Part shown: positions 1-8,501 of the stretch, one piece after another
Layout: each line of letters opens with the position of its first letter
Numbering within the stretch: the first letter of the stretch is position 1
Origin: a virus
Taxonomy: Duplodnaviria; Heunggongvirae; Uroviricota; Caudoviricetes
Virus record (IMG/VR): IMGVR_UViG_2713896779_000012
DNA: 8,863 bases
Strand: one strand, 5' to 3'
Notes under the pieces: model-generated
What the model saw: only the letters and a program-made list of their open reading frames with translations
Told to the model about the DNA's origin: nothing
The model's database searches: none
Program-made: the position numbers and the translations under genes

Positions 1-470
1 CCCTTAATGGTGATGTCTTTTTCCGTCACCCAGCCACCGTTACGTTGTATCTGAACCAGCAGACGGACTTCCGACGGATTCCTGTCACCCTTTGAGGTGG
101 TTTCCACCAGTGCCTGTACACCGAAGGTAAAGCGCAGACGGTCGATGTTTGCAGACGTAATGGTGCGGGTGATCGGCGTGTCATATTTCACTTCCGTACC
201 GAGCACCGTCTCGGAGCCGGAGGATTCAAACCCCTCCGGCGGTGTCTGCTCCTGCTCACCGGCACGGAACACCACCGTGACACCGGAGATGTTGGTATTC
301 CCCTCAGTGTCCAGCACCGGCGTACTGTTCAGCAGCACGCTTTTTAATCCATCCACCGGGCCTTCAACCGGCCCTTCGCTGATGGCATCGATCACACTCA
401 GCAACTGCGTGGACTTCAGGTTGTCCTTCGCTTCGCGCGGGGTATGCCCCTTACTGCTNCCTTTACCCAT
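1..470 (-). CDS. J: Central tail fiber / host-specificity protein J, N-terminal ~156 codons (5' partial; gene continues beyond the window start)
   Basis: Reverse complement of 420-470 reads ATG GGT AAA GG... = MGKGSSKGHTPREAKDN, and the window edge translates to ...IQRNGGWVTEKDITIKG, matching the lambda gpJ N-terminus as I recall it. ATG is at 468-470 (minus) with a GGAG Shine-Dalgarno 8 nt upstream. The N at 459 falls in the third base of a Gly codon (GGN), so it is silent. Position after I fits lambda gene order. Confidence 0.9.
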   Translation of the reverse strand, partial: MGKXSSKGHTPREAKDNLKSTQLLSVIDAISEGPVEGPVDGLKSVLLNSTPVLDTEGNTNISGVTVVFRAGEQEQTPPEGFESSGSETVLGTEVKYDTPITRTITSANIDRLRFTFGVQALVETTSKGDRNPSEVRLLVQIQRNGGWVTEKDITIK

Positions 471-492
471 TCNTCANGCTCCATAAANGACA

Positions 493-512
493 AAACCGCC
501 CGCAGGCGGTTT
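493..512 (-). terminator. GC-rich stem-loop in the I-J intergenic spacer (8-bp perfect stem aaaccgcc / ggcggttt, 4-nt loop), followed on the minus-strand transcript by a U-rich run; terminator-like or mRNA-structure element
   Basis: Seen directly: plus strand 493-500 aaaccgcc, loop 501-504 cgca, 505-512 ggcggttt. On the minus-strand RNA the hairpin is followed by UGUCNUUUAU. Function is inferred only. Confidence 0.3.
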
Positions 513-530
513 CACATAAAACATTTTGCA

Positions 531-1250
531 TCAGCGACCAATCACCACAACCTGACCACCGTCCCCTTCGTCTGCCGTGCTGATCTCCTGAGAAACCACG
601 CGTGACCCCACGCGCATTTCCCCGTACAGAACAGGCAGAACATTGCCCTGGGCAACCATGTTATCCAGTGAGGAGAAATAGGTGTTCTGCTTACCGTTAT
701 CCGTTGTCTGTGTACGGGGAGTTCTGGCTTTCGGTGCCAGCATCTGCGCCACACCACCGAGCACCATACTGGCACCGAGAGAAAACAGGATGCCGGTCAT
801 ACCACCGGCCCCAATGGCTGCCCCCCATGCTGCAAGGGTGGCTCCGGCGGTAAAGAATGATCCGGCAATGGCGGCAGCCCCCAGGACAATCTGGAATACG
901 CCACCTGACTTGGCCCCGGCGACTCTGGGAACAATATGAATCACAGCGCCATCAGGCAGAGTCTCATGTAACTGCGCCGTTAACCCGGACGTGCTGACGT
1001 CCCGCCCGGCAATCCGTACCTGATACCAGCCGTCGCTCAGTTTCTGACGAAACGCCGGGAGCTGTGTGGCCAGTGCCCGGATGGCTTCAGCCCCCGTTTT
1101 CACACGAAGGTCGATGCGGCGACCAAATCGTTGTAAATCCCCGTAAAGGCAGATGCGCGCCATGCCCGGTGACGCCAGAGGGAGTGTGTGCGTCGCNNNN
1201 NNNNNNNNNNNNNNNNNNNNNNNNNNNNNNNNNNNNNNNNNNNNNNCCAT
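531..1250 (-). CDS. I: Tail tip assembly protein I (interrupted near its 5' end by a 50-N scaffold gap at 1197-1246)
   Basis: ORF translation ATHTLPLASPGMARICLYGDLQRFGRRIDL...GGQVVVIGR matches lambda gpI as I recall it. An ATG at 1248-1250 lies just upstream of the gap and is in frame with the post-gap ORF for any true gap length of 3n+2. Stop TGA at 531-533. Overlaps the K 3' end in another frame. Confidence 0.85.
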   Translation of the reverse strand: MXXXXXXXXXXXXXXXXXATHTLPLASPGMARICLYGDLQRFGRRIDLRVKTGAEAIRALATQLPAFRQKLSDGWYQVRIAGRDVSTSGLTAQLHETLPDGAVIHIVPRVAGAKSGGVFQIVLGAAAIAGSFFTAGATLAAWGAAIGAGGMTGILFSLGASMVLGGVAQMLAPKARTPRTQTTDNGKQNTYFSSLDNMVAQGNVLPVLYGEMRVGSRVVSQEISTADEGDGGQVVVIGR

Positions 1251-1891
1251 TTGTCGGTGTACCTCTCTCGTTTGCTCAGTTGTTCAGGAATATGGTGCAG
1301 CAGCTCGCCGTCGCCGCAGTAAATTGCGGCGTGATTCGGCACCGATGAACCAAAACAGCACAGCAGCACATCGCCCGGCTGTGCCGCTGACAACGGCACC
1401 TGATACAGCCCCGTCGCCTCCAGATTATCCAGATAGAGATTCTGGCCGTTACGCCACCAGTCATCCTCACGATGAAAGTCCGGCATCTCAATCCCCGCCA
1501 GATGATAAGCATCCCGGAACAGTGTGTAACAGTCCGTCACACCGTGCTCAAAGCGCCGCCCGGTGAGATGCGGCACACAGCGGAACTTATGAATCGTCCC
1601 CCGGCAGACCAGCCACCACGGCAAATCACTCTGCACCTGCAGCCGCCGGTCGGCCTCACTCAGCCAGGGCAGACCACCGGGGTGGCTGTGGACCAGCGCC
1701 ACAATCTCACCCTGCATTTCTGCCTGCAGCCAGTCTTCCGGCGACATACGGAAATACGCCTCCGGCTCACCGGAGATATTCACGCAGGGGAAATATCTTT
1801 CCCCCTCCGGCGTGCTTACCACGAAGCCGCACGACTCCGCTGGCGCACATCGCCGGGCGTGCGCCAGAATCGCTGATTCTGTCTGTGTCAT
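1100..1891 (-). CDS. K: Tail tip assembly protein K, with JAB/MPN (JAMM-motif) and NlpC/P60-like domains; interrupted near its 3' end by the same 50-N gap
   Basis: ORF MTQTESAILAHARRCAPAESCGFVV...HSHPGGLPWLSEAD...GVTDCYTLFRDAY...ERYTDKW [gap] RRTHSLWRHRAWRASAFTGIYNDLVAASTFV. HSHPGGLPWLSEAD fits the JAMM consensus HxHx7Sx2D. ATG at 1889-1891 is 5 nt after the L stop. The 3' end overlaps the I start. An internal ATG at 1745-1747 (MSPEDW...) is an alternative start. Confidence 0.85.
   Translation of the reverse strand: MTQTESAILAHARRCAPAESCGFVVSTPEGERYFPCVNISGEPEAYFRMSPEDWLQAEMQGEIVALVHSHPGGLPWLSEADRRLQVQSDLPWWLVCRGTIHKFRCVPHLTGRRFEHGVTDCYTLFRDAYHLAGIEMPDFHREDDWWRNGQNLYLDNLEATGLYQVPLSAAQPGDVLLCCFGSSVPNHAAIYCGDGELLHHIPEQLSKRERYTDKWXXXXXXXXXXXXXXXXXRRTHSLWRHRAWRASAFTGIYNDLVAASTFV
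1197..1246. other. Assembly/scaffold gap (50 N) inside the K/I overlap
   Basis: Run of exactly 50 N. Both the K and I reading frames resume in frame after it, consistent with a true gap length of 3n+2 (possibly only 2 nt). Confidence 0.95.
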
Positions 1892-1896
1892 GGGAT

Positions 1897-2699
1897 TTAC
1901 TGCGAAAGTTTGTTAATGGAAAGGAAGCCGCCAAAGTTGCCGACGTTATTGCGGAACTTACAACCGCTCAGGCATTTGCTGCATTTATCCTTCGTGATAT
2001 CGGACGTTGGCTGGTCATATTCATCCGCGACAGCCGGACCGCTATAACCGCACTCGTCACCGCGATAGGTCCAGGTGCAGGTGTTGGCCAGCATGATACG
2101 TCCCGGAAAAACAGCGCCGTCCGTTTCCGTCGGCGTGGACAGTACAAAAGAGGCACTCACCGCGCTCAGTTCGCTGCACTGCTCGATGCGCCAGCGNCTG
2201 ATCACCTCCTGCTCCGGATCGGCGTCNCTGTTTCCGTTGACGAAGTTCACCGCATCCAGAAAACGGGCGTAAACCTTACGCCGGACCACCGTTCCGCCGA
2301 CCAGACTCTGCATATCTTCCACCATCCCGGTGACCATGCCGTACAGGTTAGAGACTGCCAGCGTGGGCCGCGTACTGGTGCCTTTGCCATTCAGTTCAAA
2401 ACCACTCCCCTGAATGGGATACGGCTGATACTGTCTCCCCTGCCAGGTGACCGGCTCACCTTTTTCGTTCTGCTCATTACAGAAAAAATAACGTTCTCNN
2501 NNNNNNNNNNNNNNNNNNNNNNNNNNNNNNNNNNNNNNNNNNNNNNNNAGGTGACCGGCTCACCTTTTTCGTTCTGCTCATTACAGAAAAAATAACGTTC
2601 TCCACCGACCTCTGTCAGATCGATTTCCCAGAGCACCACGCTGGCTGACTGCTCCGCACGGGTGCATTCATTCAGTGTTTCCTGCCGGATATCCTGCAT
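1897..2699 (-). CDS. L: Tail tip protein L (apparently intact; split in the ORF track by a 50-N gap plus 54-bp duplicated contig overlap)
   Basis: N-terminal part (2549-2699) reads MQDIRQETLNECTRAEQSASVVLWEIDLTEVGGERYFFCNEQNEKGEPVT. Sequence below 2498 continues WQGRQYQPYPIQGSGFELNG...MVTGMVEDMQ...FLSINKLSQ*. Removing the 104-nt artifact (one repeat copy plus the gap) leaves 699 nt, i.e. 232 codons plus stop. ATG at 2697-2699 overlaps the M stop (ATGA). Stop TAA at 1897-1899. Single N at 2197 and 2227. Confidence 0.9.
2445..2602. repeat. Assembly artifact: 54-bp perfect direct repeat (2445-2498 and 2549-2602) flanking a 50-N gap (2499-2548); unmerged overlapping contig ends
   Basis: aggtgaccggctcacctttttcgttctgctcattacagaaaaaataacgttctc occurs identically on both sides of the N run, and the post-gap copy starts immediately at the gap edge. 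Collapsing it restores a single in-frame L gene. Confidence 0.9.
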
Positions 2700-3013
2700 C
2701 AGTTCACCACCTGTTTAAACTCTGCGCTGAACTCAACACGCAACATACTGACCTGCGACGACCATTTTGCGCAGGTCACCTTTATCTGCCTGTAACCATA
2801 AGGCGNNNNNNNNNNNNNNNNNNNNNNNNNNNNNNNNNNNNNNNNNNNNNNNNNNTCACGGGAGACAGACAGCGTCACGCTGTACGTTTTCAGGTCAGCG
2901 TTCAGCCCGGCAGGCGCTCGCTGAGAATAGCCATCACCAAAGCGCACCTTTCTTACAGAAGGGACCGAAGCCACATCCATACCTGGTTTCACTTTCCAGC
3001 GGAAGGTCTTCAT
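2699..3013 (-). CDS. M: Tail tip protein M (interrupted by a 50-N scaffold gap at 2806-2855)
   Basis: ORF MKTFRWKVKPGMDVASVPSVRKVRFGDGYSQRAPAGLNADLKTYSVTLSV... [gap] ...PYGYRQIKVTCAKWSSQVSMLRVEFSAEFKQVVN matches lambda gpM as I recall it. ATG at 3011-3013 overlaps the H stop (ATGA). Stop TGA at 2699-2701 overlaps the L start. Confidence 0.88.
   Translation of the reverse strand: MKTFRWKVKPGMDVASVPSVRKVRFGDGYSQRAPAGLNADLKTYSVTLSVSRXXXXXXXXXXXXXXXXXXPYGYRQIKVTCAKWSSQVSMLRVEFSAEFKQVVN
2806..2855. other. Assembly/scaffold gap (50 N) inside M
   Basis: Run of exactly 50 N. The M frame is maintained across it. The true missing length is probably about 65 nt if M is 109 aa as in lambda (from memory). 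Confidence 0.95.
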
Positions 3014-5571
3014 CGTCCACCTCCGGAGAACAGGCCACCATCACGCATCTGTGTCTGAATTTCATCACGGGCACCCTTGCGGGCCATGTCATACACCGCC
3101 TTCAGAGCAGCCGGACCTATCTGCCCGTTCGTGCCGTCGTTGTTAATCACCACATGGTTATTCTGCTCAAACGTCCCGGACGCCTGCGACCGGCTGTCCG
3201 CCATACGGCCCGGTGTACCGACATAACCGCCGGTGGCATAGCCGCGCATCAGCCGGTAAAGATTTCCTACGCCAATCCGGCTGGTTGCCTCCTTCGTGAA
3301 GACAAATTCACCACGGTGAACAATCCCCGCTGGCTCATATTTGCCGCCGGTTCCCGTAAATCCTCCGGTTGCAAAATGGAATTTCGCCGCAGCGGCCTGA
3401 ATGGCTGTACCGCCTGACGCGGATGCGCCGCCACCAACAGCCCCGCCAATGGCGCTGCCGATACTCCCGACAATCCCCACCATTGCCTGCTTAAGCAGAA
3501 TTTCTGTCATCATGGACAGCACGGAACGGGTGAAGCTGCGCCAGTTCTGCTCACTGCCGGTCAGCATCGCCGCCATATTCTGTGCAATACCATCAAAGGT
3601 CTGCGTGGCTGCACTTTTTACCTGCGACATACTGTCCGTGGCGCTCTCTTCCCACTCGCTCCAGCCGGACCTGAGGCCTGCCATCCAGTTCCCGCGAAGC
3701 TGGTCTTCAGCCGCCCAGGTCTTTTTCTGCTCTGACATGACGTTATTCAGCGCCAGCGGATTATCGCCATACTGTTCCTTCAGGCGCTGTTCCGTGGCTT
3801 CCCGTTCTGCCTGCCGGTCAGTCAGCCCCCGGCTTTTCGCATCAATGGCGGCCCGTTTTGCCCGTTGCTGCTGTGCGAATTTATCCGCCTGCTGCGCCAG
3901 CGCGTTCAGGCGCTCCTGATACGTAACCTTGTCGCCAAGTGCAGCCAGCTGGCGTTTGTACTCCAGCGTCTCATCTTTATGCGCCAGCAGGGATTTCTCC
4001 TGTGCAGACAGCTGGCGACGTTGCGCCGCCTCCTCCAGTACCGCGAACTGACTCTCCGCCTTCCACAAATCCCGGCGCTGCTGGCTGATTTTCTCATTTG
4101 CTCCGGCATGCTTCTCCAGCGTCCGGAGTTCTGCCTGAAGCGTCAGCAGGGCAGCATGAGCACTGTCTTCCTGACGATCGCCCGCAGACACCTTCACGCC
4201 GGACTGTTTCGGCTTTTTCAGCGTCGCTTCATAATCCTTTTTCGCCGCCGCCATCAGCGTGTTGTAATCCGCCTGCAGGATTTTCCCGTCTTTCAGTGCC
4301 TTGTTCAGTTCTTCCTGACGGGCGGTATATTTCTCCAGCGGCGTCTGCAGCCGTTCGTAAGCCTTCTGCGCCTCTTCGGTATATTTCAGCCGTGACGCTT
4401 CGGTATCGCTCTGCTGCTGCGCATTTTTGTCCTGTTGAGTCTGCTGCTCAGCCTTCTTTCGGGCGGCTTCAAGCGCAAGACGGGCCTTTTCACGATCATC
4501 CCAGTAACGCGCCCGCGCTTCATCGTTAACAAAATAATCATCCTTGCGCAGATTCCAGATGTCGTCTGCTTTCTTAAACGCAACCTCTGCCTTAATCAGC
4601 ATCTCCTGCGCGGTATCAGGACGACCAATATCCAGCACCGCATCCCACATGGATTTGAATGCCCGCGCAGTCCTGTCTGCCCAGGTCTCCAGCGTGCCCA
4701 TGTTCTCTTTCAGGCGGCGGGTCTGGTCATCAAACCCTTTCGTTGCGGCCTCGTTCGCCGCCTGCAATGCCCCGGCTTCATCGCCGGAACGCTGCAACTG
4801 AGCAACATACGCAATCTGCTCCGCCGTCACGTTATGGAACTGGCGTGCCATCGCCGTCAGCCCCGACGTCGGGTCTGTGGTCAGCTTCCCGAAGGCTTCA
4901 GCGACCTTGTCCACCTCCACGCCGGATGCAGAGGAGAAACGCGCCACACTCTGGCTGATGGACGCAATCTGAGCCTCACCGCTTACCCCCGCCTTAACCA
5001 GTGCGCTGAGTGACTCGCTGGTCTGGTTAAACGTCAGCCCTGCCGCCTGCCCGGCTCTGGACAGGACCAGCATACGATCTGCCGTCAGTCCCGCCTGATT
5101 GCCGGAAAGGACCAGCGTTTTGTTGAAATCGGACAGGGTTGAGTTGCCCTGATACCAGGCATACGCCAGCGCACCGGTCGCCACCGCCAGCGAGGTGGCC
5201 CCCACCATCGGCAGGGTGATCGCACCGGCAAGCCCCCTGAACATGGGGATCATCCCGCCGAAGGAGTCCTTCACCTGCCCCCCCTGTTGCAGCAGGATCA
5301 GCCACGGACTTTGCCCGCCTGCAAGCTGCGTGGCCACGTCGGTGAACTGTGCAGGCAGCATACGCATGGCGGCTTTATACTGCCCGACGGAAATCCCCGC
5401 TTTCTGTGCAGCCAGCGCCTGTCGGCTCAGCGACTGTTCAACGACTGCCGCTGTTTTTTTCGCATCACTTTCCGTACCGGAAAAATGACGCCTGACTCTG
5501 GCCATCTGCTCGTCAAATCTGGCCGCATCCAGACTCAAATCAACGACCAGATCGCCTACCGGTTCAGCCAT
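3010..5571 (-). CDS. H: Tail tape measure protein H (853 aa)
   Basis: Uninterrupted 853-codon ORF. Sequence MAEPVGDLVVDLSLDAARFDEQ...GGLFSGGGR matches lambda gpH, including the Ala/Gln/Lys/Glu-rich helical middle and the Gly-rich hydrophobic segment near the C-terminus. ATG at 5569-5571 is preceded by GGAGGAG (6-nt spacer) and overlaps the end of the T frame. Confidence 0.95.
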   Translation of the reverse strand: MAEPVGDLVVDLSLDAARFDEQMARVRRHFSGTESDAKKTAAVVEQSLSRQALAAQKAGISVGQYKAAMRMLPAQFTDVATQLAGGQSPWLILLQQGGQVKDSFGGMIPMFRGLAGAITLPMVGATSLAVATGALAYAWYQGNSTLSDFNKTLVLSGNQAGLTADRMLVLSRAGQAAGLTFNQTSESLSALVKAGVSGEAQIASISQSVARFSSASGVEVDKVAEAFGKLTTDPTSGLTAMARQFHNVTAEQIAYVAQLQRSGDEAGALQAANEAATKGFDDQTRRLKENMGTLETWADRTARAFKSMWDAVLDIGRPDTAQEMLIKAEVAFKKADDIWNLRKDDYFVNDEARARYWDDREKARLALEAARKKAEQQTQQDKNAQQQSDTEASRLKYTEEAQKAYERLQTPLEKYTARQEELNKALKDGKILQADYNTLMAAAKKDYEATLKKPKQSGVKVSAGDRQEDSAHAALLTLQAELRTLEKHAGANEKISQQRRDLWKAESQFAVLEEAAQRRQLSAQEKSLLAHKDETLEYKRQLAALGDKVTYQERLNALAQQADKFAQQQRAKRAAIDAKSRGLTDRQAEREATEQRLKEQYGDNPLALNNVMSEQKKTWAAEDQLRGNWMAGLRSGWSEWEESATDSMSQVKSAATQTFDGIAQNMAAMLTGSEQNWRSFTRSVLSMMTEILLKQAMVGIVGSIGSAIGGAVGGGASASGGTAIQAAAAKFHFATGGFTGTGGKYEPAGIVHRGEFVFTKEATSRIGVGNLYRLMRGYATGGYVGTPGRMADSRSQASGTFEQNNHVVINNDGTNGQIGPAALKAVYDMARKGARDEIQTQMRDGGLFSGGGR

Positions 5572-6402
5572 ACCGGACTCCTCCTGCGATCCCTTCTGAT
5601 ACTGTCATCAGCATTACGTCATCCTCCGTCATGTCCGCCACATCCGGGGAAGCGGGGATAACTTCATTCCCGTCCGGGCCAAAGCGGACACCTCCGGCAA
5701 GCCCTGCCGCTTTCTGCATCAGCACATCATCTTCAGGCTCTTCGTCAGCCTCGCGCCGGTTCAGCAGACTGAAATCCAGCGGATGCATATCCGGATCGCT
5801 GAAAAACAGGCTGAGCACGGTGTACGTCAGCCCGGAAAAGTGCATATCCAGCAGAACATCATGAAAATAATGGGTACTGTAAAAGCGGTGCCAGTCGGCA
5901 TACTCCGTGGATGACATCCCGGCAAGCATGGCACGCCAGTCGGGTCGCCCCATCTCACGCGCCAGTTTCAGGGCAAAACTCAGCTCACCGTCGAACACTT
6001 TCCCGCAGAAACAGGCTCTGCGGGCCCGGCGTCCTCTGTCTGTTCAGGGGCATTATTCACCACAAACTCATACATACCAGACAGCCGGTACACCACGTTT
6101 TCAGCATGAGAAATTGCCTCCGTGGGCCAGGTGGTAAGCACTTCCTGCTCAATCTGTTTAACGGCTTCATTCATGGACGGCATCTTTGTCTTCTGCGGAT
6201 GGTTATGCCACAGGGACATCGCCACCAGAAACGCGCCGGTTCTGATGGCGTCTTCCACAGTAAACTTCCGATTGCTGTCTGACTCCGCCTGTTCTGCCTG
6301 CCGTTTCATCAGGGCGAGATGCTCAATGCGCTGCAGGGCTGACAGTTCAGAAAGCGTGACGGTCACACCGTTATGTTCAAATGATTCGGTTTTCAGGAAC
6401 AT
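5564..6402 (-). CDS. T: Tail assembly chaperone GT fusion, made by programmed -1 ribosomal frameshift: G frame from 6402 to the slippery site, then T frame to 5564
   Basis: The T-frame ORF (5564-5998, ...FDGELSFALKLAREMGRPDW...GGVRYG) has no start with a ribosome-binding site of its own; its listed start is a GTG inside the slippery site. It overlaps the last codons of G, where the slippery heptamer G GGA AAG sits (5998-6004 on the minus strand). The lambda G/GT frameshift is established knowledge. Confidence 0.85.
5980..6402 (-). CDS. G: Tail assembly chaperone G (140 aa)
   Basis: ORF MFLKTESFEHNGVTVTLSELSALQRIEHLALMKRQ...PVSAGKCSTVS matches lambda gpG. ATG at 6400-6402 with GGAGAG Shine-Dalgarno 6 nt upstream. 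Stop TGA at 5980-5982. Confidence 0.93.
   Translation of the reverse strand: MFLKTESFEHNGVTVTLSELSALQRIEHLALMKRQAEQAESDSNRKFTVEDAIRTGAFLVAMSLWHNHPQKTKMPSMNEAVKQIEQEVLTTWPTEAISHAENVVYRLSGMYEFVVNNAPEQTEDAGPAEPVSAGKCSTVS
5998..6004 (-). promoter_or_regulatory. Programmed -1 ribosomal frameshift slippery heptamer GGGAAAG (G GGA AAG) at the G/T junction
   Basis: Minus-strand mRNA reads ...UCU GCG GGA AAG UGU UCG ACG GUG AGC UGA. After a -1 shift it reads GGG AAA GUG UUC GAC GGU ..., which is the T frame (VFDGELSF...). Confidence 0.85.
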
Positions 6403-7165: not shown

Positions 7166-7561
7166 TCACATTTCATAGGTAATGACATAAGTCAGATCGG
7201 CAGAACTCCACAGGCCCGCATCATCGTCGCGCCGGTAGTCATAGCCACTGGCCACCATACTGGTGATCAAATCTGACAGTGCCGGGATATCGCTCATCAC
7301 CGGATAAATCCGGGACTCCATCCACGCATCCAGCTCTGAATCCGGTACCTGAGCAGGCAGGAAAACTTCAATATGCAGCTCCGCCTGCCAGGTATCGCTG
7401 TCCAGCTCTTCGCCCGTGTATTCAGCGCCGGTGAGATAAACGGCAACTGCCGGAAAATCCGCCTCATCAAAAACAGCGGGGCGACCATCAAAAAGCGTCG
7501 CCCCGGTGTCATGCTTCTCCAGTGCATCCAGTACGGCTGCACGGAGTTCAGTATGTTTCAT
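7166..7561 (-). CDS. U: Tail tube terminator protein U (131 aa)
   Basis: [34 protein letters not shown]...LTYVITYEM matches lambda gpU. ATG at 7559-7561 overlaps the Z stop (ATGA). Stop TGA at 7166-7168. Confidence 0.93.
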
Positions 7562-8136
7562 CGCTTTATTACCATTCTCAGTTGATGCTGCAGCGCATAG
7601 CCCAGCTCTTTCGGAAGACGTTCACGCCGTATCCGTTCAATATTCTGTTTAAATGCCGTGGTCAGCGGCACCGCCATCGGAATTTTCACCACATCAATGG
7701 GGTAACGATTTTTCCCGGCCACACGCTGCATGACATGCCACCGGCCATTTTTCAGTTGCTGAATAAACGCGCCGGGAATATGACGGTTACCCACCACAAG
7801 CACGCTGCCGCCACCTTTCAGGGATGAACGCTGCCCCTTTTTACGACGCCTGCGGCGCGAAAGGACAACCCGCGCATTACCCAGCCTGATTACGGGCAAA
7901 TCCCCCCGGTTAACTTTGATTCTGGCCTGCGGATTTTTGACCGTGGCCCTTTTCAGCCTGGCCCTTTCCTTTACCAGTTTCCGGCGTACCTTTGTCTCAC
8001 GGGCAACCTGTGACGCCGACTGCGATATCGCGGATGAAGCAACGCGGTTAATGGCCATTGCGGCGGCACCGGGCACCGCCGTTTTGCTGATACGGCTGAG
8101 GTTTTCAACGGCCTGCTCAAGACCTTTTATGGGCAT
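7558..8136 (-). CDS. Z: Tail completion protein Z (192 aa)
   Basis: ORF MPIKGLEQAVENLSRISKTAVPGAAAMAINRV...[11 protein letters not shown] matches lambda gpZ. ATG at 8134-8136 is preceded by a purine-rich AAGGGGGAGG. Stop at 7558-7560. Confidence 0.93.
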   Translation of the reverse strand: MPIKGLEQAVENLSRISKTAVPGAAAMAINRVASSAISQSASQVARETKVRRKLVKERARLKRATVKNPQARIKVNRGDLPVIRLGNARVVLSRRRRRKKGQRSSLKGGGSVLVVGNRHIPGAFIQQLKNGRWHVMQRVAGKNRYPIDVVKIPMAVPLTTAFKQNIERIRRERLPKELGYALQHQLRMVIKR

Positions 8137-8147
8137 ACCTCCCCCTT

Positions 8148-8501
8148 TCAGCGGCGACGGTTAACGGCAGGCGGCACGCCACGCCCGAGCCAGAGATGAC
8201 AGCTTCCACCATCATCCGGCGAAACCCGGTCTATCCAGAAGTTTTCCTCACCGATGGTCAGCGTGTCTCCACGCCGCAGCTGCCGCACATCATCAGTCCG
8301 GACAAACAGGGACGGGCTGGAGCCTTCAACGCGCACGCCCTGTCCGGCATAGCTGATATTTTCAGGGTCATCAAAAACACCACGTATTACTGCGCCGGAC
8401 TGCTCACCGGATGTCATGGTGGCTGACGTTCCCATGTACCCGCGTATCGTTTCATCGGCGCGGGCAATGGCAGCATCGAACAGGTTATCGAAATCAGCCA
8501 C
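8148..8501 (-). CDS. FII: Head-tail joining (head completion / tail attachment) protein FII (117 aa)
   Basis: ORF MADFDNLFDAAIARADETIRGYMGTSAT...HLWLGRGVPPAVNRRR matches lambda gpFII. The start codon at 8499-8501 is GTG (plus strand cac), preceded by GGGAGG. Stop at 8148-8150. Confidence 0.9.
   Translation of the reverse strand: MADFDNLFDAAIARADETIRGYMGTSATMTSGEQSGAVIRGVFDDPENISYAGQGVRVEGSSPSLFVRTDDVRQLRRGDTLTIGEENFWIDRVSPDDGGSCHLWLGRGVPPAVNRRR

What the first reader, a model, noticed from the sequence alone, without database searches (positions are those of the whole stretch)
2445..2602. 54-bp duplicated contig overlap around a 50-N gap artificially splits L
Identical 54-mers lie on both sides of the N run. 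Deleting one copy plus the gap (104 nt) gives an uninterrupted 232-codon L gene. As submitted, automated annotation would call L as two fragments or a pseudogene.
Basis: seen in the sequence. Interest (0 to 1): 0.4.

Follow-up and report, generated by a model that had tools for sequence, protein, structure and literature searches.

The report
Assembly-gap duplicate splitting phage L gene
The identical 54-base stretches on either side of the N gap are two assembler contigs that overlap and were joined with a placeholder gap instead of being merged, so the lambda-type tail gene L only looks broken; this is an ordinary draft-assembly artefact.

Summary
Window 2445-2498 and 2549-2602 are the same 54 nt and abut the 50-N run 2499-2548 exactly.

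The window is the whole WGS record LEAA01000210.1, from E. coli O121:NM 03-4064. It was assembled with ABySS 1.3.4 from 100-bp paired reads, and it holds the lambda-like tail genes FI'-J' on the minus strand.

All four gap-separated blocks are colinear with one prophage locus in lambda and in closed O121 genomes, where the 54-mer is single copy. Removing 104 nt restores a 232-aa L. It is identical to the closed-genome L apart from two X residues that come from single Ns.

The cause could be reconstructed. A second prophage in O121 shares an exact 70-nt run with this L gene. With k=63, each flanking contig reaches k-1 = 62 nt into that run, so the two contigs overlap by 2x62-70 = 54 nt. The same k reproduces five of the six internal contig ends, including the 257-nt middle contig.

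The three 50-N runs stand for true distances of +2, -54 and +65 nt. Five of the six single Ns sit on sites where the two prophages differ.

This is not a biological feature, and interest is low.

The parts
2445..2498 (.). Left copy of the 54-mer; the last 54 nt of contig c2 (window 1247-2498).
   Evidence: Exact identity to 2549-2602. Maps to L002 10199-10252, the same bases as the right copy.
2499..2548 (.). 50-N placeholder gap. The true distance between the two contigs is -54 nt, that is, an overlap.
   Evidence: The other two 50-N runs stand for +2 and +65 nt, so the 50 Ns do not measure the distance.
2549..2602 (.). Right copy of the 54-mer; the first 54 nt of contig c3 (window 2549-2805, 257 nt).
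   Evidence: A k=63 de Bruijn graph built from three closed-genome prophage loci yields exactly this 257-nt unitig.
2437..2498 (.). The last 62 nt (k-1) of c2. These are the first 62 nt of the 70-nt exact run shared with the L gene of a second O121 prophage (P2).
   Evidence: The maximal exact match between locus 1 and P2 is ref 2389-2458, which corresponds to window 2437-2498 plus 2603-2610.
2549..2610 (.). The first 62 nt (k-1) of c3. These are the last 62 nt of the same 70-nt shared run.
1897..2699 (-). Lambda-type tail tip gene L as submitted: 803 nt, made of the 699-nt gene plus 104 nt of artefact. The start ATG is at 2699-2697 and the stop at 1899-1897.
   Evidence: The collapsed translation is 232 aa. 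It differs from lambda L at 3 residues and from O121 RM8352 L at none, aside from 2 X. It matches Pfam PF05100 Phage_tail_L with E = 3e-101. It lies in M-L-K-I-J synteny.
1197..1246 (.). Gap 1: 50 Ns standing for 2 nt (TG), in the K/I overlap. The +48 nt keeps both reading frames.
2806..2855 (.). Gap 3: 50 Ns standing for 65 nt inside gene M. The -15 nt keeps the frame. It is flanked by contig ends that lie 62 nt inside a run shared with a third prophage (P3).
2197..2227 (.). Two single Ns, at 2197 and 2227, inside L. They lie exactly on the two sites where locus 1 and P2 differ between two long shared runs, so they are the consensus of a collapsed bubble.
   Evidence: at ref 2149 and 2179, locus 1 has A and G while P2 has G and A.

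Best explanation
This is a scaffolding artefact of a de Bruijn graph assembly, not biology.

Shown: the strain (E. coli O121:NM 03-4064) belongs to a lineage that carries several lambdoid prophages with near-identical tail genes. The L gene of the prophage in this window shares an exact 70-nt run with the L gene of a second prophage. In a k=63 graph that run is a two-copy repeat node. The unique contig on each side ends k-1 = 62 nt inside it. The two flanking contigs therefore carry the same 2x62-70 = 54 nt.

Inferred: the 70-nt repeat contig was left out. The scaffolder then linked the two flanking contigs through read pairs and wrote its placeholder of 50 Ns instead of merging the overlap. 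From memory, 50 is the default minimum gap of abyss-scaffold.

Consequence: the real sequence has one copy of the 54-mer and no gap, and L is an intact 232-codon gpL gene.
For: 1. Source. The window equals LEAA01000210.1 over its whole length. It was assembled with ABySS 1.3.4 from 100-bp paired reads with 300-bp inserts (PMC4563881). ABySS is a de Bruijn graph assembler whose sequences overlap by k-1 (bioRxiv 10.1101/068338).
2. Single copy elsewhere. The 54-mer is single copy, and both flanks are colinear, in lambda, in closed O121 RM8352, and in three other assemblies.
3. Intact gene. The collapsed L equals the RM8352 L.
4. Repeats are present. The closed O121 genomes hold 5-6 copies of the K-L region.
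5. Contig ends fit one k. The exact runs shared with paralogues P2 and P3 of RM8352 are ref 1159-1260, 2389-2458 and 2592-2780. Five contig ends each lie exactly 62 nt inside a run boundary. The predicted values 1199, 2450, 2397, 2653 and 2719 equal the observed ones.
6. Simulation. A k=63 unitig simulation reproduces the 257-nt contig and the 70-nt repeat unitig. A k=55 simulation does not.
7. Gap length. The three 50-N runs stand for +2, -54 and +65 nt.
8. Sister assembly. It ends exactly at the start of one P2 run (ref 1159). It also carries P2's 141-nt allele between two shared runs.
Against: No reads were available, so the junction in this particular strain was not observed directly. One of the six internal contig ends (c1, window 1196) is not explained by the two paralogues fetched. 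It would need a run starting at ref 1135 shared with another paralogue, which was not retrieved. Gap 3 stands for 65 nt, more than 50, so the 'minimum gap' reading requires the distance estimate to have been about 15 nt too low. The abyss-scaffold default of 50 Ns is recalled from memory and was not verified here.
Confidence: 0.97

Rival explanations
1. Strain 03-4064 has a genuine tandem duplication or insertion in L. The Ns hide real intervening sequence and L is a pseudogene.
For: In related genomes the prophage is already defective: J is interrupted by an IS3 element in RM8352 and in LM996918.1. A broken L would therefore not be selected against. No reads were examined.
Against: The copies end exactly at the gap edges. 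The 54-mer is single copy at this locus in the closed O121 genome inspected (RM8352) and in three independent drafts with the identical H protein. The contig ends are predicted to the base by k-1 = 62 and the paralogue repeat boundaries, which a real duplication would not produce.
Confidence: 0.01
2. The artefact is the same, but the contigs were ordered against a reference genome and concatenated with fixed 50-N spacers by an external tool, rather than joined by ABySS's own paired-end scaffolder.
For: All gaps are exactly 50 N whatever the true distance, including one of 65 nt. The paper mentions reference-based scaffolding.
Against: The paper says reference scaffolding was applied to the O157:H7 strains only. 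The record is only 8.9 kb, which is odd for a reference-ordered pseudomolecule. The sister O121 assembly has the same 50-N gap in M.
Confidence: 0.1
3. This is a mis-scaffold: the 257-nt contig c3 belongs to a different prophage and was wrongly placed here, so collapsing the overlap would create a chimera.
For: Several paralogous prophages exist. The sister assembly does contain a chimeric L.
Against: c3 is 100% identical to the closed O121 genomes at the position adjacent to c2 and c4. No genome outside the eight O121 genomes listed reaches 100%. The collapsed L equals the closed-genome protein.
Confidence: 0.01

Closest known systems
Negative (overlapping) scaffold gaps in short-read de Bruijn graph assemblies
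   Same: The identical contig ends abut a fixed-length N run. The contig ends lie k-1 inside a repeat shared with paralogous copies. Collapsing the overlap restores the reference structure.
   Different: The overlap (54 nt) is not k-1 itself. It is 2(k-1) minus the length of an omitted 70-nt repeat contig.
Bacteriophage lambda tail tip protein gpL (Pfam PF05100, Phage_tail_L)
   Same: The collapsed gene is 232 aa with 3 substitutions relative to lambda L. The full-length Pfam match has E = 3e-101. The synteny is H-M-L-K-I-J.
   Different: Nothing of note. It is a prophage allele in an O121 STEC strain, inside a prophage whose J gene is IS-disrupted in close relatives.
Genuine in-gene tandem duplication
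   Same: Two identical direct copies lie 104 nt apart inside a coding sequence.
   Different: There is no sequenced junction between the copies, they end exactly at the N run, and the duplication is absent from all related genomes examined.

Membership tests
Scaffold-gap overlap artefact | The repeat copies end exactly at the two edges of the N run (suffix of the left contig equals prefix of the right contig). | tested here: met
   The longest suffix that equals a prefix is 54 nt, at 2445-2498 and 2549-2602.
Scaffold-gap overlap artefact | Both flanking contigs are colinear with a gap-free relative in which the repeated segment is single copy. | tested here: met
   Lambda L001 8646 only; RM8352 L002 10199 only; L003, L005 and L006 each have one copy.
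Scaffold-gap overlap artefact | The N-run length is a convention and not a measured distance. | tested here: met
   The three 50-N runs stand for +2, -54 and +65 nt.
Scaffold-gap overlap artefact | The contig ends sit k-1 inside repeats present elsewhere in the genome. | tested here: met
   Five of the six internal ends lie exactly 62 nt inside exact runs shared with prophages P2 and P3 of a closed O121 genome. A k=63 simulation reproduces them. The sixth end (window 1196) is not explained.
Scaffold-gap overlap artefact | Reads or PCR span a single-copy junction in the same strain. | not testable with these tools
Lambda gpL (Phage_tail_L) | Full-length match to PF05100 above the curated cut-off. 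| tested here: met
   337 bits against a cut-off of 25, profile positions 1-206 of 206, for the identical closed-genome protein.
Lambda gpL (Phage_tail_L) | Position between M and K in a lambda-type tail module. | tested here: met
Genuine tandem duplication | A sequenced junction or intervening sequence between the copies. | tested here: not met
   Only Ns lie between the copies.
Genuine tandem duplication | The duplication is present in closely related genomes. | tested here: not met
   The 54-mer is single copy in RM8352 and in three draft assemblies with the identical H protein.

The most novel reading that the evidence does not exclude
Strain 03-4064 really carries an insertion or duplication in L at this point, and the Ns hide true sequence. 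L would then be a strain-specific pseudogene in an already decaying prophage.
Probability: 0.01. Interest if true: 0.1.

Novelty: not a real feature. Interest (0 to 1): 0.04.

Why it matters
The only consequence is for annotation hygiene. As deposited, the record makes the tail gene L look truncated; the gene calls give a 199-aa fragment. Genes M, K and I are also distorted or split by the other two placeholder gaps. Pseudogene counts or prophage-completeness calls made from such drafts would therefore be wrong. The case is a clean worked example: contig ends, N runs and single Ns in a multi-prophage STEC draft can be predicted to the base from paralogue repeat boundaries and the assembler's k. 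No new biology follows.

Tried and rejected
- I searched viral contigs and genome contigs for the gap-spanning pattern to find the source. Both returned nothing. The source was found instead through an exact-protein look-up of H.
- I first guessed that 54 = k-1, so k=55. This was rejected. The paralogue repeat boundaries and the unitig simulation fit k=63 and not k=55.
- I tested lambda itself as a stand-in for the paralogue. Its exact-match boundaries (78-nt run) give inconsistent k values, so it is not the relevant repeat.
- I queried the whole K-L block of the sister assembly to find a paralogue. No closed genome matches it fully (best 98.4%), which showed that the sister contig is chimeric. 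Querying only its divergent 161-nt patch then located paralogue P2.
- I could not retrieve the remaining three paralogous K-L copies of RM8352, because the search tool lists one place per record. The end of contig c1 (window 1196) and the single N at 477 therefore remain unexplained.
- The literature search confirmed ABySS's k-1 graph overlaps, but not the default minimum gap of 50 Ns.

Full report
**Observation**

Window 2445-2498 and 2549-2602 are identical 54-mers, and they abut the 50-N run 2499-2548 exactly. The longest suffix of the left flank that equals a prefix of the right flank is 54 nt.

This is the only long direct repeat in the window. The other two 50-N runs, at 1197-1246 and 2806-2855, have no such flank identity. 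There are also six single Ns, at 459, 473, 477, 488, 2197 and 2227.

Removing one copy plus the Ns (104 nt) yields a 699-nt ORF of 232 codons on the minus strand. As submitted, the frame that starts at the L ATG (2699) runs through the Ns, is shifted, and stops at 2391.

**What the window is**

The window is a lambda-type tail module on the minus strand: FI', FII, Z, U, V, G, T, H, M, L, K, I, J'. It is 98.5% identical to lambda J02459. It is 99.7-100% identical to one prophage locus of closed E. coli O121 genomes such as RM8352, NZ_CP028110.1.

An exact-protein look-up of the 853-aa H protein identified the source. The window is the entire WGS record LEAA01000210.1 (8863 nt, GCA_001309825.1). 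According to PMC4563881 this is E. coli O121:NM 03-4064. It was sequenced as 100-bp paired-end HiSeq reads with 300-bp inserts. [quoted passage not shown] Only the O157:H7 strains were scaffolded against references.

**Test of the interpretation**

The four gap-separated blocks are w1-1196, w1247-2498, w2549-2805 and w2856-8863. They are colinear with a single locus in both lambda and RM8352.

- Gap 1 stands for 2 nt (TG).
- Gap 2 stands for minus 54 nt, because both copies of the 54-mer map to the same bases, L002 10199-10252.
- Gap 3 stands for 65 nt.

The 54-mer is single copy in lambda and in RM8352. It is also single copy in three other assemblies that encode the identical H protein: LM996918.1, LDZZ01000042.1 and RRKS01000054.1. 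All three are contiguous across it.

The collapsed L is 232 aa and differs from lambda L at three residues. It is identical to RM8352's annotated 'phage minor tail protein L' (WP_001152565.1), apart from two X residues caused by the single Ns. That protein matches Pfam Phage_tail_L over the full profile.

The predicted annotation damage is real. The gene calls on record for this contig give L as a 199-aa fragment starting at the gap edge, M as 52 + 34 aa, and I as 31 + 190 aa. Gaps 1 and 3 change the length by +48 and -15 nt, so they keep frame. Only gap 2 (+104 nt) shifts it.

**Why the contigs overlap by 54 nt**

Closed O121 genomes hold 5-6 places matching the K-L region, so repeat-induced contig breaks were expected.

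The sister assembly (LDZZ01000042.1, O121:H19 03-2832) carries a 141-nt divergent patch just left of the 54-mer. That patch is 100% identical to the L gene of a second prophage of RM8352 at 4.895 Mb, here called P2. A patch in the window's H gene led in the same way to a third prophage at 1.689 Mb, called P3.

Coordinates below use the gap-free closed-genome locus, where ref = L002 7803-16528. The maximal exact runs shared with P2 are 1159-1260 and 2389-2458 (70 nt). Those shared with P3 are 2592-2666 plus 2668-2780.

From the P2 mismatch at window 2436 I had predicted k-1 = 62. That predicted a 70-nt shared run for gap 2, and run boundaries at ref 2592 and 2780 for gap 3. The fetched paralogues met all of these. 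With k-1 = 62 the predicted ends match the observed ends exactly:

| Contig end | Predicted (ref) | Observed (ref) |
|---|---|---|
| c2 start | 1199 | 1199 |
| c2 end | 2450 | 2450 |
| c3 start | 2397 | 2397 |
| c3 end | 2653 | 2653 |
| c4 start | 2719 | 2719 |

I built a toy de Bruijn graph from the three closed-genome loci.

- At k=63 it yields a 257-nt unitig at 2397-2653, which is exactly the window's middle contig.
- At k=63 it also yields a unitig ending at 2450 and unitigs starting at 1199 and 2719.
- At k=63 it also yields a separate 70-nt repeat unitig at 2389-2458.
- At k=55 it does not reproduce any of these.

So 54 = 2x62 - 70. Each flanking contig reaches k-1 nt into a two-copy 70-nt run. 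The 70-nt repeat contig was left out, and the scaffolder joined the flanks with a placeholder.

ABySS being a k-1-overlap de Bruijn assembler is documented. That abyss-scaffold writes at least 50 Ns by default is my recollection and was not verified here.

Further support comes from two places. The sister contig ends exactly at ref 1159, the start of a P2 run. Five of the six single Ns (459, 473, 488, 2197, 2227) fall exactly on sites where locus 1 and P2 differ. That fits a collapsed bubble written as an ambiguous base.

**Unexplained remainder**

The end of contig c1 (window 1196) would require a shared run starting at ref 1135 with a paralogue I could not retrieve. The N at 477 is not a P2 difference. 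Gap 3 stands for 65 nt, slightly more than the 50 Ns written.

**Rivals**

- A genuine duplication or insertion in this strain cannot be excluded without reads. It is contradicted by the exact gap-edge geometry, by the single-copy state in all relatives examined, and by the base-exact prediction of the contig ends from k and the paralogue boundaries.
- A mis-placed contig is contradicted by c3 being 100% identical to the adjacent closed-genome sequence, with no listed genome outside the O121 set reaching 100%.
- Whether ABySS itself or an external tool wrote the Ns is a detail that does not change the verdict.

**Verdict**

This is an assembly and scaffolding artefact in a draft STEC genome. 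L is an ordinary intact lambda gpL allele. It is not a real biological feature, and interest is very low.

Noticed in passing
window 1197-1246: This 50-N run stands for only 2 nt (TG) in the K/I overlap. It adds 16 X codons to both K and I while keeping their frames. The gene calls on record split I into 31 + 190 aa.
   Followed up: yes
window 2806-2855: This 50-N run stands for 65 nt inside gene M. M is called as 52 + 34 aa fragments. The same gap is present in the sister assembly LDZZ01000042.1. The flanking contig ends lie 62 nt inside a run shared with a third O121 prophage.
   Followed up: yes
window 459, 473, 477, 488, 2197, 2227: Five of the six single Ns coincide exactly with sites where this locus differs from prophage P2 of a closed O121 genome, which fits collapsed assembler bubbles. 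The N at 477 is not explained by P2.
   Followed up: partly
window 3199-3307 (3' part of H, minus strand): Six differences from the RM8352 locus are all alleles of a third prophage's H gene (P3). The resulting H protein is identical in four independent assemblies. This is probably real gene conversion between prophages rather than assembly error.
   Followed up: partly
window 7346-7495, 7781-7848, 8208-8394: There are further clustered mismatches against the closed O121 locus: 14 sites in three patches, within U/Z/FII. The pattern is typical of mosaic exchange with paralogues. Their donors were not sought.
   Followed up: no
L005 about 7599-7759 (LDZZ01000042.1): The sister strain's L gene is contiguous but chimeric. 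A 141-nt stretch is 100% the allele of prophage P2, and no closed genome matches the composite (best 98.4%). This is most likely a wrong branch taken between two shared runs.
   Followed up: yes
L003 12888-13760 (LM996918.1): In this related assembly the L stop codon reads TTA, giving 235 aa. The third codon of the long K reading frame is TAG, and K is called as 199 aa. These may be real mutations or errors.
   Followed up: no
window 5998-6004, minus strand: The heptamer GGGAAAG lies at the end of G where it overlaps T. This is the position of lambda's G-T -1 programmed frameshift site.
   Followed up: no
L002 3697-8272; L003 14965-19540: In close relatives the J gene of this prophage is truncated by an IS3-family insertion and the tail fibre gene is frameshifted. 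The prophage is probably defective regardless of L.
   Followed up: no
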